This document shows, piece by piece, positions 24,875-38,279 of a stretch of 64,000 bases of DNA. The notes beneath the pieces were generated by a model. That model was not told the DNA's origin. It did not search any database and saw only the letters and a list, made by a program, of their open reading frames with translations. Each line of letters begins with the position of its first letter. The stretch's first letter is position 1. A program made the translations under genes and the position numbers. Source of the stretch: Eledone cirrhosa (lineage: Eukaryota); assembly GCA_964016885.1 (NCBI GenBank), contig OZ024740.1, forward strand, positions 302,808,001 to 302,872,000. Reading direction: 5' to 3'.

Positions 24875-25069
24875 ATAGGAACCAGTAAGACCCCGACGGC
24901 TGAGCTCAAGCCGTTTCGACGGCTAATTCTGGTCCAGAATTAGCCGTCGAAACGGCTTGAGCTCAGCCGTCGGGGTCTTACTGGTTCCTATTACCCACTC
25001 TACTACCCTAAGTATTGAGTACTTTGGTGCGTTATGGTCCACCTGGTTCCTTACCACATTTCCTTCGTT
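24875..25069 (+). mobile_element. Family C fold-back element in (TA)n
   Basis: Perfect 58-bp arms centred on 24933. Right arm has the hammerhead 3' half GAA ACGGC-TTGAGCTCA-GCCGT C; TTGAGTACT at 25015. Confidence 0.85.
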
Positions 25070-25691
25070 ATATATATATATATATATATATATATATATA
25101 TATATATATATATATATATATATATATATATATATATGTATATATATATATTATATTCACACTTCTTTTCGTAATTGATTTGCAAGATACTTGATGGGAA
25201 ATCGTATGATGAAAGAGATATTGTTATATTTTGAGAGTTCATACGGCCAATAAAAATAAAATTCACGACCCAGTTGAATTTCTCTTCGTGAAGCTCTTTG
25301 AGAAGGTCACAGAATGTGTAACGAAAGATTTTTGAAGATTAATAATCAAACAACCACCCACTTACATAACTAACCGATGAATGGATTAGTTATTCAAATA
25401 ATACTAAACTGTGAACTTAACTTGTGCGAGTGCTTTATTGGCAAAAGAGCTGTTTACAAAATAATGAAAACAGTCAAATAATAGCAAGAAACAAAAAGAA
25501 CAAATACTTGGTTGGGTTACTTCTTTAACACTTGAAATGGAAGATAAGTGTGTATTTAACCTTTCAGACGCTATTGTTTAATCTATGTGAGGGAGGAGTA
25601 TAATGAAGGATTAAGGGGGAACAGCATTTTGATGATTATATATATATATATGTATATATATATATATGTATATATATATATATATATATAT

Positions 25692-25899
25692 ATAACGAAG
25701 GAAATGTGGTAAGGAACCAGGTGGACCATAACGCACCAAAGTACTCAATACTTAGGGTAGTAGAGTGGGTAATAGGAACCAGTAAGACCCCGACGGCTGA
25801 GCTCAAGCCGTTTCGACGGCTAATTCTGGACTGATTTTAGTCCAGAATTAGCCGTCGAAACGGCTTGAGCTCAGCCGTCGGGGTCTTACTGGATCCTAT
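25692..25899 (-). mobile_element. Family C fold-back element in (TA)n
   Basis: Near-identical to 24875-25069 in the opposite orientation, with a different turning point (CTGGACT-GATTTT-AGTCCAG). Confidence 0.85.
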
Positions 25900-25941
25900 A
25901 TATATATATATATATATATATATATATATATATATATATAT

Positions 25942-26072
25942 CCGTATGTGGTTGATGGTTGAGAGAAAGGAGTACTTAATACCGAAGTAGAATTCTTGTC
26001 TACAGGCCCTGTAAAAAACAGGCGAAACTGCAGAGTAAGAAGACTCACTATTTAGCCTTAAAAAATGAGTAT
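25942..26072. mobile_element. Family K rearranged element in (TA)n
   Basis: An inverted 3' end (GTATGTGGTTGA...GTACTTAATACCGAAGTA) joined to CCTGT-AAAAA-ACAGG C GAAAC...GACTCACTATTTAGCCTTA. Related copies at 37277-37355 and 62293-62420. Confidence 0.65.
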
Positions 26073-26258
26073 ATATATATATATATGGGGAACGGGGGGT
26101 ATACTGCGTGGGTTCTTGATGAGTATAGGCGGGGCCACAGCTTGAAATGTTATTCAATACGTCAGCAGTATACAGGGGGTCTTTATTTTATACATAAATT
26201 ACTTCTACAGGACTAGATATGTCTCATACGTATTCCTATATGAAATAAAGTTATAAGG

Positions 26259-26874
26259 ATGTATGTTCTTCTGGTTCTATAATTTCACAAATGTTTGCCA
26301 ATAGAGAGAGAGAGTCGGTTTCTAACATAGTTACAAAACTCTCTCATTGGAATTTACGCAATATCAACTAGGTAGATATGTATGCATGTCTGCATACATG
26401 CGTGTGCAGGTATGGGTGTTATTGTATGTGTGGATGTGGATGTTTTGAGTTATATGTGTGCATGTGCATGTTTTGTATATGCAGTTATTAGATGCAAAAT
26501 TTTTGGACTGTTTTACATATATTTACTGTTCCATTGATATATTGTACTTTTCTAACCAGTTGTGTTCTTTCTGTTTCTGTGAAGCCCAGCTTCTCAAGAT
26601 TTGTACTTAGGTAGTTACTAACATATGCCACTGCCCCAATAATCACAGGCATAAATCTGAAGTTATTTTCAGGGTGGAGTATCTGTAGATTTCTCATTAG
26701 TTCTGCATAGATATTCTCCTTTTCGCTAATCTTTAAAATTATATTGGCATCTGCTGGGCAGCTAACTCCCACTACTGTGCATGCCACATATCATTTTCCC
26801 TGGCACATATCATTCATTATATCTGGTCTGTTATGCCTGCATTTTATTGGAGTTTTTACTGGAACATTCCACCA
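26259..26874 (-). mobile_element. 5'-truncated R4/Dong-like LINE copy (RLE end and 3' UTR)
   Basis: ORF 26488-26787 is nearly the same peptide as the C-terminus of 1-1863, and the UTR is homologous. Ends CCAGAAGAA-CATACAT. Confidence 0.92.
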
Positions 26875-27071
26875 TAATTTCGGTTTCTCCTGTAGCTACA
26901 ACTGAATAAATTGTGTTTACTTTTCTCATTGATTTTCACACTGGTTTACATCGGTAAATTGTTTTCGTTCCTTGTCTTCGGTAAATTGTTTTCATTCCTT
27001 GTGTTCGGTAAATTGTCATTGTTTATGTATGTATGTATGTATGTATGTATGTATGTATGTATGTATGTATG

Positions 27072-27415
27072 TGCGCAGGGACATAGAAATAGTCGGACTG
27101 GACACCCATCGCGCGGTTAAACCACTGGGAGTGAAGGACCCCTAGCCTTTGTCAGGGCATTCTTCTAGGAGAAGGCAACTCAGTAAACTGGGATAACTCC
27201 GATATAAAACCTGTGGCTCAGTAGTTACCGATGATGTTGGTCTTTTCTTCTTTTCGTGATATAGCTACTATCGCTCAGAGAGTGGAATTGGCTCAGTGTA
27301 CAGTCTTTCCTCACTTTAAAAAATATCTTCCCGCGCAGGCATTACAAGCTAGAATTAATTAATAATGGTATATAGTGTCATGGCCATACTCGATAACGAG
27401 GGGTCAGCCATCATG
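27072..27415 (+). mobile_element. RTE-like 5' region fragment between (ATGT)n tracts
   Basis: CTAGGAGAAGGCAACTC...GATATAAAACC is typical of RTE leader regions; homology to 20450-20505. Confidence 0.45.
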
Positions 27416-35780: not shown

Positions 35781-35897
35781 TTCTATTTATTTTCACTTCG
35801 TGTTTTATATCTATTTTTATTTCTATTTTTCCTGTCCTTTCATGTTTTTCCGCTATCTCCCCACTCACTCCCTCTCGGAGTCCGCTCCCCTCCCACT

Positions 35898-35935
35898 CAC
35901 CTGATGAAGGACTTATGTCCGAAACATCGTAAACC
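35898..35935 (+). ncRNA. Minimal hammerhead-like motif typical of Penelope pseudo-LTRs
   Basis: CTGATGA A GGAC-TTAT-GTCC GAAAC ATC GTA; stem I pairing is poor. Confidence 0.55.
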
Positions 35936-36553
35936 ACCTCGCTCACTTTCACCAGGCGTGTAGCTAATAACATCATGTACCATTTACTCCTGCGTTTGTT
36001 TGTTTATTTCTTATTTCGAACTATATATTAACAGCTTGGAAAATGTTGCGAATAATAGGACTGAGTGCCGCTTGTTATCTTTGAGGAATAACGTATTCGT
36101 CAAGACCTGTTGTATATGAATTGAAAACACAATTATCAACATAACACCCTTCTTGTAAACTAACAATGTCTTCAATGCAATTTTTCAGCTAGCCCAAATG
36201 CTGGCTAACAGGTCATCTCAGGACACGTATCGTTCCTGAAAACTTGGAAAACTTGACTTGCAGTTTCTGTTCAGATCCCTGTAAAAATGCTACAGGCCTG
36301 AAATTACTGATGCGTGTCCACCAAATGCAATAACGCCGTGATATTTTCTTTGCGTGCGCTGAAATTAATTTACCGGTTCTTGCCGTCTTTTTCGACGAGT
36401 GACTCCATCATAAATATATATACTGCGCAGACCGGTGGGGGTGAATTGGGTCTCACAAGGGAACGGGCGAAGAACTCAAGAGCACACGCTTTGTCTGTTC
36501 CCATGTCGATTCAATTTGGATTGCCTCCGAAACATAACCTTATTATGTAACAA

Positions 36554-36628
36554 GCTGTCTGATGATGTCACGGCACTGGGCGCACCGAACCGTGTGGCCA
36601 CTGTTGTCATTGAAATATGTATGACAGC
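36554..36628 (+). ncRNA. Type I hammerhead ribozyme with long stem II
   Basis: GCTGT CTGATGA TGTC ACGGCACTGGGCGCAC-CGAACC-GTGTGGCCACTGTTGT CATT GAA ATATGT A TG ACAGC, followed by ATTAAA and (TA)n at ~36678. Confidence 0.68.
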
Positions 36629-36869
36629 ATTATTATTAAAGGACTTTAACATCTGAAACTACTTCGCTTTTTCTTATTATATATATATATGTGTGTGTGT
36701 GTGTGTTTCAGGGTATATATATAAGCAGCAGGTCGTTGTTCTATATAGCCGTGTTTGTTATGACCAAGGCTGCATGGACATACTTGTTGCGACATGATCG
36801 ATTGAGTCAGCCGTGGGATATTGCTGTATATGTACAGACGTGTTAGCAATTCTGCCACCGAAACATTTA

Positions 36870-37105
36870 CTATTTTGATACAGGTTTATGGAGATGCCAC
36901 TATATCGATTCGTCAACAAATAAACAAAATGTGGAAGTGGTGTGAGCGGTTATGGCGAAAGATTACCGATTAAGTGTTAAGATGGTTGCAGAAGAAACGG
37001 GTTTGGATAAAAACGCAGTTCACAGAATTTTAACAGATCATTTGCATGAGCGAAACATTGTGCAAAACTAGTGCTCAAACACTTGTCTATAGAGCAAAAG
37101 AGCGA
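36870..37105 (+). pseudogene. Mariner-family transposase remnant (HTH region)
   Basis: DYRLSVKMVAEETGLDKNAVHRILTDHLH..CAKLVLKHLSIEQK matches the mariner DRR.T...IA......V..IL...L.M.K.CAKWVP..L...QK pattern; has a stop and a frameshift. Confidence 0.8.
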
Positions 37106-38075
37106 GCCAGTGGGAAAGTTGTCAGGTTTGGTAGAACGATTCGAAATTTTATATACAAATATAGAGCAAATAACATGTACGAAAATAGATGGTAAAAACT
37201 GAGCATCATTCATTTAATATGTATCGATGCCTGAATATTAGTGAGTCAAGATTCGATACTATAAAAATAGTGACACGACTCACTATTTAGCCTTAATAAA
37301 ATGAATATTAAAACTTTACTTCGGTATTGAGTATTCCAGTCGTCAACCACATACTAATATATATATATATATATATATATATATGTGTGTGAGTGTGTGT
37401 GTGTATGTATATATATATATATATATATATATATATATATATATATATATATATATATATATATATATATATATATATTACAAAAGACACCAAATATTAA
37501 ATGGTGATTAACGAACGTTTCATCCGCTGCTGGGACTTTTCAAAATCAGATGTTTAATATAGAAACCTCATTATAATCTCACTGAAAAATATTACAACCA
37601 ACGGTCAAAGGAGTTCTTTTGCGGGGAGATTATAATGAACTTTCTATATTAAATATCCCAGGAGGAGATGAAACGTTCAGCATTTAATGTACTAATGTAT
37701 TTGGTGGCTTTTTTAATGAATAATTTGCTTCTAGTGTATTTGTTATCTTTGGCACAATAAGAGTTTGTATACATACATTTTTGGAAAATTATTTCAGAAG
37801 GGTTGATACATAGCCCTTTGTTTTCCTTATTATGATACATTACTCTATTTTGAGCTGTGTTTAACCTCTCCACTTATGGTTTTAATTTTTTTTTTGTGTG
37901 TGAAAAGCGATATATATTCCATATAGTAAGTATCGTCTTCCTGTTTTCATTCGGTTGCAACGTTTTTCGAAATATTTACTTCTTCGTTCACAGATTGATT
38001 TTTTTAGATTCAGGAGCGATTCTTTGCTTAAACTTTAATCTGTTATTTTAATAAATAAATATATATATATATATA

Positions 38076-38279
38076 TAACGAAGGAAATGTGGTAAGGAAC
38101 CAGGTGGTAACGCACCAAAGTACTCAATAATTAGGGTAGTAGAGTGGGTAATAGGAACCAGTAAGACCCCGACGGCTGAGCTCAAGCCGTTTCGACGGCT
38201 AATTCTGGACTAAAATTTAGTCAAGAATTAGCCGTCAAAACGGCTTGAGCTCAGCCGTCGGGGTCTTACTGGTTCCTAT
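38076..38279 (-). mobile_element. Family C fold-back element in (TA)n
   Basis: Near-identical to 25692-25899, with turning point CTGGACTAAA-A-TTTAGTCAAG. Confidence 0.85.

What the first reader, a model, noticed from the sequence alone, without database searches (positions are those of the whole stretch)
24875..38279. Near-identical family C copies each turn back at a different nucleotide
Seen: copies at 24875, 25692 and 38076 are almost identical, but their hairpin apices differ (CTGG-T-CCAG; CTGGACT-GATTTT-AGTCCAG; CTGGACTAAA-A-TTTAGTCAAG), and the older 11088 copy differs again. In the three young copies the short arm stops at the same internal CCTAT and merges with (TA)n. Inference: the palindrome is regenerated at each insertion. 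Reverse transcription would start at a TA repeat, run to just upstream of the ribozyme GAAAC, snap back onto its own cDNA, and rejoin the target through TA microhomology. That is a fold-back integration mechanism, not amplification of a fixed MITE.
Basis: partly seen in the sequence, partly recalled or inferred. Interest (0 to 1): 0.75.

Follow-up and report, generated by a model that had tools for sequence, protein, structure and literature searches.

The report
Penelope stubs joined from two cDNAs
These palindromes are short end-pieces of a very abundant Penelope-type jumping gene sitting in TA repeats; almost every copy has its own centre, likely because two DNA copies are started on opposite strands of the target and joined head-to-head, rather than one copy folding back on itself.

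Summary
Observation confirmed. Family C is the pLTR end of a young Hydra-clade Penelope-like retrotransposon (intact 719-aa ORF in L085; 23,294 exact tail matches). The palindrome is rebuilt per insertion: 95 of 108 folded copies have different junctions, subfamily variants sit in both arms (276 of 283 sites), and centre loss does not grow with age. Snap-back is not supported: the tail-less arm reaches further 5' than the tailed arm in 46 of 108 short copies and by kilobases in long insertions. Best reading: two target-primed cDNAs, from two fixed internal start sites, joined head-to-head. Inner ends cluster at +1..+12 (likely an RNA 5' end) and exactly at the hammerhead's predicted cut (11 of 34, p 2e-5), often in both arms at once. 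Against a simple mRNA start at +1: 0 of 27 ORF-start copies stop there. The architecture (inverted pLTR plus tail) is published; the scan had noted it, with similar readings, on other DNA of this genome.

The parts
24875..25071 (+). Young copy 1 (subfamily A): site-2 arm 24875-24932 (inverted, reaches +8), site-1 arm 24933-24991 (starts at +7, or +6 with 1-nt microhomology), tail 24992-25071; (TA)n on both sides
24949..24976 (+). 3' half of the type I hammerhead in copy 1: GAAA core at 24949-24952, stem III with palindromic loop, predicted cut between 24971 and 24972 (+45/+46), 3' strand of stem I; the 5' half of the ribozyme is missing
   Evidence: sequence; parent fold and descriptor
24992..25071 (+). 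PLE 'tail': the 80 bases between priming site 2 (CCTAT, +65) and priming site 1 (CGTTAT, about +145); in the parent it continues into the 5' UTR and ORF
25692..25899 (-). Young copy 2 (subfamily A): tail 25692-25771, site-1 arm 25772-25832 (stops at +5), site-2 arm 25833-25899 (reaches +1 with a four-T run and an extra G not in the sampled parents); one private mismatch in the site-2 arm
38075..38279 (-). Young copy 3 (subfamily A): tail 38075-38150 with a 4-nt deletion, site-1 arm from 38151, both arms reach +1 (four T in one arm, three in the other), two private mismatches in the site-2 arm
11078..11192 (+). Older diverged copy: site-2 arm about 11078-11136, site-1 arm from about 11135 (about +22), tail cut short at 11192
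   Evidence: ends read by eye
17519..17608 (-). More distant unfolded relative of the same pLTR end (79-83% in two blocks)

Best explanation
Family C copies are short insertions of the end (pLTR) of a Hydra-clade Penelope-like retrotransposon, and each palindrome is likely built at insertion from two separate cDNAs joined head-to-head. Steps: (1) shown: the unit is contiguous with an intact RT + GIY-YIG ORF, and outer ends fall at two fixed internal sites (+65, about +145) that share TAT with the (TA)n target. (2) inferred: the endonuclease nicks both strands of the self-complementary target and each 3' end primes reverse transcription, usually one at each site, on RNA of the same source. (3) shown: the two inner ends vary separately and cluster at +1..+12 and at +46/47. 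(4) inferred: +1 is the 5' end of a capped RNA started inside the pLTR and +46 is the 5' end left by hammerhead cleavage. (5) inferred: the two cDNA 3' ends are trimmed and joined by template jumping or end joining (blunt, 1-6 nt microhomology, or small inserts), and fill-in makes the palindrome. The stubs lack promoter, ORF and half the ribozyme, so they are likely dead ends.
For: Parent: L085 ORF 5080-7239 intact, 719 aa; the whole L085/L121 insertion has a site-1 end on the left and a site-2 end on the right. Per-insertion junctions: 95 of 108 distinct; 15 otherwise identical subfamily-C copies have 15 junctions; repeated junction types mostly cross subfamilies. Site-2 arm further 5' in 46 of 108, site-1 arm in 36, 26 symmetric or ambiguous. 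In 11 long two-ended insertions the arms end independently, site-2 arm longer in 5. L184 and L207: the site-1 arm stops inside the tail, so the arms do not overlap at all. One-arm-only skips (L103, L119, L185, L193, L196) and unequal T runs (L154 26 vs 9; L116 4 vs 7). Three copies carry two-site haplotypes of different subfamilies in their two arms (L010, L023, L026). Cut-site ends 11 of 34, p 2.1e-5; both arms there in 6 copies, Fisher p 3.4e-6. In vitro, another PLE nicks and extends both strands and starts at two internal sites that bound the tail (PMC11167929).
Against: Arm ends are correlated (Spearman 0.46) and arms nearly always share a subfamily, which snap-back also predicts. Arms of one copy differ as much (2.1%) as arms of different copies of one subfamily (1.9%), so identity does not separate the models. 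0 of 27 ORF-start copies that reach +1 stop there, against 83 of 108 site-1 arms, so +1 is not the 5' end of the RNA that yields ORF copies. The extra G is a minority (319 of 1,513 four-T arms; only 2 of 9 informative arms in the unbiased set). Early centre-break repair of a perfect hairpin would also give small asymmetries without an age trend. Long T runs could be assembly errors.
Confidence: 0.72

Rival explanations
1. Snap-back (first reader; close to the self-priming proposed in PMC3846280): one cDNA folds onto itself, copies back to CCTAT, joins the target through TA microhomology, and the perfect palindrome then loses its centre asymmetrically soon after insertion.
For: Arms share subfamily at 276 of 283 sites; arm ends correlate (0.46); 26 of 108 junctions are symmetric or ambiguous; 6 copies end at +46/47 on both sides. 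6 non-parent bases are mirrored in both arms.
Against: Needs one-sided deletions of 15 nt or more in 17 of 108 copies and of hundreds to thousands of bases in L085/L121, L104, L106, L123, L128. Does not explain one-arm skips, unequal T runs, two-subfamily copies, or insertions with the tail on both arms (L071, L141, L147, L148). Blunt or 1-nt-centre joints leave no room for a priming loop. No age trend in centre loss (rho 0.013, n 104).
Confidence: 0.12
2. Two cDNAs, but +1..+12 is not an RNA end: the protein holds the hammerhead's long helix II near the priming sites as a telomerase-like template boundary, so most cDNAs stop and stutter there on first passage, while later passages on the same RNA are free.
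For: 83 of 108 site-1 arms that reach +12 stop there, but 0 of 27 ORF-start copies stop at the second passage. Stutter on the T run (up to 26 T). +1 lies inside helix II.
Against: An extra G at -1 in 7 of 10 arms whose -1 base is not explained by partner or flank (read by eye) and an initiator-like TCATTT with a TATA-like run 25 nt upstream (motifs recalled) point to a capped start. L039 repeats the unit +1..+257 head-to-tail, as expected from jumps off a real RNA end.
Confidence: 0.12
3. A fixed MITE-like or SINE-like master palindrome amplified as a whole, with centres eroded afterwards.
For: Outer ends are nearly constant (105 of 108 intact site-2 ends) and a few subfamilies exist.
Against: 37 of 40, 21 of 23, 32 of 33 and 11 of 12 junctions are distinct within subfamilies A-D; no one-arm variant is shared by copies that also share a junction, apart from none seen among 12 recurrent variants; 38 of 108 junctions carry inserted bases; a continuum runs from 20-bp arms to full-length ORF insertions with the same two ends.
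Confidence: 0.03
4. Assembly or library artefact (fold-back reads).
For: Palindromes and homopolymers are error-prone in long reads (own knowledge).
Against: Flanks are not inverted; ends sit at element-specific sites; independent contigs show (TA)n loose ends at +64 and +144 in runs X1, X4 (and +144 in X5) and a strand-switching contig in X5, another organism.
Confidence: 0.01

Closest known systems
Hydra clade of Penelope-like elements (Craig et al. 2021, PMC8557442; seen: passages, section 11 in full, supplement hits incl. Hydra-1_Obim)
   Same: Single ORF with C-terminal GIY-YIG-type endonuclease, the clade's motifs, (TA)n targets, hammerhead near the 3' end, partial tandems with an adjacent inverted 5'-truncated copy and a tail at one end.
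   Different: Not the same family as Hydra-1_Obim (different hammerhead and protein sequence, compared by eye); 3' UTR of about 1.1 kb; helix II of about 54 nt; tail of 80 nt against 30-40 in the paper; most copies are 200-bp stubs.
PAc (Poseidon of Anolis) in vitro mechanism (Frangieh et al. 2024, PMC11167929; seen: parts 1-2 of 4)
   Same: Both target strands nicked and extended, AT-rich target, two internal RT start sites that bound the tail, start sites downstream of the hammerhead.
   Different: There initiation is at a site not homologous to the cut DNA and no read ends were found at the cut site; here both sites share TAT with the target and genomic ends pile up at the cut site. The parts I read do not describe how the inverted junction forms.
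Inverted pLTR plus tail in Adineta Penelope (Arkhipova et al. 2013, PMC3846280; seen: passages and Discussion)
   Same: Head-to-head inverted pLTR, shorter than the direct one, tail on one side, palindrome at the junction.
   Different: Interpreted there as self-priming on an antisense template; the end statistics here fit two target-primed cDNAs better.
PLE hammerheads and animal retrozymes (PMC4209133, passages; 10.64898/2026.07.22.740005, part 1 of 5)
   Same: Type I hammerhead in the pLTR, U3-A8 core variant, palindromic loop 3.
   Different: Family C stubs are dispersed, inverted and hold only half a ribozyme; they are not tandem retrozymes (one short tandem, L039).
L1 twin priming (recalled, no call)
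   Same: Second target end primes internally; inverted 5' part joined by microhomology.
   Different: In L1 the two cDNAs cover different parts of the RNA and the internal site varies; here both cover the same stretch and the site is fixed.

Membership tests
Hydra-clade PLE (parent) | Single ORF, RT followed by C-terminal GIY-YIG-type endonuclease | tested here: met
   719-aa ORF with YRDD and VIY...YIG read; 2,054 homologues, top hit carries PF01541. Pfam and PDB scans of the ORF itself gave nothing.
Hydra-clade PLE (parent) | RWK motif, DKT instead of DKG, CxCX5C linker, CxxC and CxH in the endonuclease, no CCHH | tested here: met
   RWR (one change from RWK), DKT, CNCPDRSIC, CNLC, CKH read by eye; sequence blocks match Hydra-1_Obim by eye.
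Hydra-clade PLE (parent) | Placement in the clade by RT phylogeny | not tested
   No tree was built with reference Hydra proteins.
Hydra-clade PLE (parent) | Insertion into (TA)n | tested here: met
   128 of 171 copies run from site 1 straight into TA at the fixed offset.
EN+ PLE insertion unit | Partial tandem, adjacent inverted truncated copy, tail at one end | tested here: met
   L085/L121.
Type I hammerhead ribozyme | Stems I-III, core with position 3-8 pair, GAAA, NUH cut | tested here: met
   Met in parents with U3:A8; several B-type parents have C3.A8; not met in the stubs, which lack stem I 5' strand and core. Rfam listed no hammerhead among the 150 window rows shown of 204.
Type I hammerhead ribozyme | Self-cleavage activity | not testable with these tools
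   Only indirect: ends pile at +46/47.
MITE | Fixed internal structure and subfamilies of identical copies with terminal inverted repeats of a DNA transposon | tested here: not met
   95 of 108 junctions distinct; sequence belongs to an RT element.
Non-LTR retrozyme | Tandem non-coding units each with a complete hammerhead | tested here: not met
   Stubs are single, inverted, half-ribozyme; L039 tandem units start at +1 and lack the core.

The most novel reading that the evidence does not exclude
One Penelope family uses three RNA classes, and the genome records all three: a capped RNA starting at +1 whose only usable priming sites lie at its 5' end and which therefore yields tens of thousands of 'strong-stop' stubs; the hammerhead's 3' cleavage product starting at +46, which yields 20-bp-arm stubs with both arms cut at the same bond (in vivo proof of PLE ribozyme cleavage, on one RNA or a ribozyme dimer); and an endless template (circle or multimer) that yields the ORF-bearing partial tandems with no boundary at +1. 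A dimeric RT would prime both target strands and join the two cDNAs.
Probability: 0.3. Interest if true: 0.7.

Novelty: new member of a known kind. Interest (0 to 1): 0.45.

Why it matters
How Penelope-like elements make their inverted repeats and one-sided tail, and what their hammerheads do in vivo, are stated as open in PMC8557442, PMC3846280 and PMC11167929. A young family with more than 23,000 copies is a large natural record of integration products: it argues against self-priming, names two priming sites and two template ends to the base, and supplies an intact ORF for an assay. Practically, such stubs will be mis-annotated as MITEs or microRNA-like hairpins.

Tried and rejected
Rfam scan of the window: only microsatellite-driven microRNA matches below their thresholds in the rows shown. 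The repeat finder was swamped by microsatellites. Pfam and PDB found nothing for the ORF; the protein atlas gave no answer. No RNA holder listed, so the transcription start could not be tested; contig depths are not copy numbers and were not used as such. Two earlier junction parsers over-extended through the ribozyme's own stems and were replaced; the final one still misreads some rows: 6 of 114 folded rows were dropped, and several of the 32 'no short arm' rows are folded or double-tailed copies. The 30 loci and those are selected by sequence and were kept out of the main counts. A genome-wide count of arm combinations was not obtained, so chimera frequency rests on the sample. Age-dependent centre erosion: rejected. 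Arm-versus-copy identity test: uninformative within subfamilies. Literature searches that found no paper stating the two-cDNA junction or cut-site ends for PLEs; subscription papers are not covered, and I did not read the supplements of PMC11167929 or PMC3846280, which may bear on this.
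Full report
1. Observation. The three young copies and the older one are in the window as described. They align at 94-95% and differ mainly at the apex; 24875-24991 is a near-perfect hairpin (z -25.8). All lie in (TA)n. Numbering below: +1 is the A of TCATTTAG in the parent (L085 position 4846).

2. Copy number and sample. A 24-base stretch of the tail junction has 23,294 exact matches in G000 (reversed control 0); a 37-base subfamily stretch has 1,202. 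I fetched 78 regions for the first 100 places and 71 loci for the first 100 places, all on contig C1. They hold 171 copies with the exact anchor: 25 with a long tailed arm, 114 folded, 32 other. The sample is blind to apex structure but enriched for subfamily A. Six folded rows with ambiguous parses were dropped, leaving 108.

3. The parent. Long copies continue upstream through a complete type I hammerhead (stem I ACCCC/GGGGT, core UUGANAA with a U3:A8 pair, long helix II, GAAA, stem III, cut after C+45) and about 1.1 kb of 3' UTR into an ORF. L085 holds an intact 719-aa ORF that starts at +235 of the upstream repeat. Its motifs (RWR, DKT, CxCX5C, CxxC, CxH, no CCHH) are those given for the Hydra clade (section read in full), and blocks match Hydra-1_Obim by eye. 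It has 2,054 homologues at E 1e-20 or better. At least 40 places match the ORF start at 99-100%, so the family is young. The U3-A8 core is a described PLE variant (PMC4209133, passage). Family C is therefore the pLTR end of this element.

4. Two fixed outer ends. One arm ends at about +145, where the parent goes on into the 5' UTR; 128 of 171 copies pass there straight into TA. The other ends at +65 (105 of 108 intact). Both sites end in TAT, shared with the target. The full-length L085 insertion has the +145 end on its left; I predicted a +65 end on its right and found it. Four loci carry the +145 end on both arms. This is the 'tail' of PLEs, which PMC11167929 ties to two internal RT start sites, with both target strands nicked and extended in vitro.

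5. The palindrome is rebuilt each time. 95 of 108 junctions are distinct, and 15 otherwise identical subfamily-C copies have 15 junctions. Subfamily variants are mirrored in both arms at 276 of 283 sites. Junctions are blunt (19), microhomologous (51) or carry inserts (38), often copied from nearby element sequence. Centre loss does not rise with divergence (rho 0.013, n 104; median 19 nt in both zero-divergence and other copies).

6. Not snap-back. With microhomology assigned against the claim, the tail-less arm reaches further 5' in 46 of 108 copies, the tailed arm in 36 (17 against 6 for 15 nt or more). Among 33 loci mapped to the parent, 11 long insertions show one end of each type; the tail-less arm is the longer in 5, by hundreds to thousands of bases. 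In L184 and L207 the arms share no sequence. Skips in one arm only (L103, L119, L185, L193, L196), unequal T runs (L154, L116, window 38075) and three two-subfamily copies from the similarity-selected set (L010, L023, L026) point to separate synthesis. Against: arm ends correlate (0.46), and arms within a copy (2.1% different) are closer than random arms (5.2%, permutation p 0.0002) but no closer than arms of the same subfamily (1.9%; n 56). Both cDNAs thus usually come from the same source, perhaps the same RNA molecule.

7. Where the cDNAs stop. 154 of 248 inner ends lie at +1..+12. +1 sits in an initiator-like TCATTT with a TATA-like run 25 bases upstream (consensus recalled). All 30 arms beginning with an extra G before a four-T run lie at junctions, none after parent upstream sequence; such arms are 319 of 1,513 four-T arms. 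In 30 unselected four-T arms the -1 base is A 11, G 7, T 7, C 5; by eye 10 are not explained by partner or flank, and 7 of these are G (two may be one local duplication). That fits copying of a cap (recalled from L1), but the unbiased set has only 2 G in 9 informative arms, so it is suggestive only. L039 repeats +1..+257 head-to-tail. Against a simple mRNA start: of 38 rows with the ORF start, 27 read through +1, 9 stop between +92 and the start codon, and only the two L039 units stop at +1, whereas 83 of 108 tailed arms that reach +12 stop there. So ORF copies come from another template, or +1 is a protein-set boundary.

8. The ribozyme cut site. Among tailed arms ending between +30 and +56, 11 of 34 end at +46/47 (p 2.1e-5, one end per insertion). 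Nine tailed and nine tail-less arms end there and 6 copies have both (Fisher p 3.4e-6), mostly with 0-2 added bases. A stall at the base of stem III would be expected at +45 (inference); weighted counts are 2.7 at +45, 14.5 at +46, 5.2 at +47. The signal is uneven: A 11 of 58, B 2 of 31, C 1 of 36, D 2 of 15 (A against C p 0.026, one of several possible comparisons). An earlier scan note found no such enrichment in other families, so this is family-specific at best.

9. Independent data. Contigs of runs X1 and X4 show TA loose ends at +64 and +144, X5 at +144, and X5 (another organism) has a contig that switches strand at +14. No RNA holder was listed.

10. Mechanism. Shown: parentage, two outer sites, independent inner ends, two clusters of inner ends. 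Inferred: double nicking and double priming of the symmetric TA target, RNA 5' ends at +1 and +46, end-to-end joining and fill-in. Confidence about 0.9 for regeneration per insertion, 0.84 for two cDNAs (best reading plus the template-boundary rival), 0.72 for the full reading.

11. Known and new. The inverted pLTR with a tail is published (PMC3846280, PMC8557442) and was ascribed to self-priming; the two start sites are published in vitro. My searches found no paper that tabulates such junctions or reports cut-site ends. The scan had already noted the same architecture and similar readings for other families in this genome; a look-up by this sequence found nothing. Verdict: a new family of a known kind, whose copies make an open mechanistic question testable. 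Interest 0.45.

Noticed in passing
window 8790-8925: Unrelated fold-back unit in (TA)n, 56-bp perfect arms, z -21.9; each arm holds a near-complete hammerhead-like layout with an altered core. A relative appears in L048 and L197.
   Followed up: partly
window 5340-5535: Palindrome with arms of about 95 bp and a hammerhead-core-like CTGATGA; probably a stub of another PLE family.
   Followed up: no
window 24690-24760: Unfolded hammerhead-like motif (CTGATGA, 13-bp helix II, GAAAC), z -4.0, 120 bases before copy 1.
   Followed up: partly
window 23962-24000 and 15128-15175: Short AT-rich palindromes (19-bp perfect arms) next to TA runs.
   Followed up: no
L039:1123-1846: Head-to-tail triple of a unit that starts at +1 and ends at +257, just past the start codon, closed by an inverted site-2 arm; a contig of run X1 shows a similar +229 to +3 joint.
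   Followed up: partly
L085:986-2176 (-): 396-aa reading frame of an unrelated non-LTR-type reverse transcriptase fragment next to the PLE insertion; family not tested.
   Followed up: no
L072, L102, L122, L154: T runs of 17-26 at the +1 boundary where parents have 3; reiterative, telomerase-like copying or assembly error.
   Followed up: partly
L066, L104, L174, L210: B-type parents carry an unpaired C3.A8 core, likely a weakened ribozyme, yet the subfamily is abundant.
   Followed up: partly
window 24875/25692; L033, L076, L142, L185: Copies often lie in close pairs (under 1 kb), some inserted into each other's TA flank.
   Followed up: no
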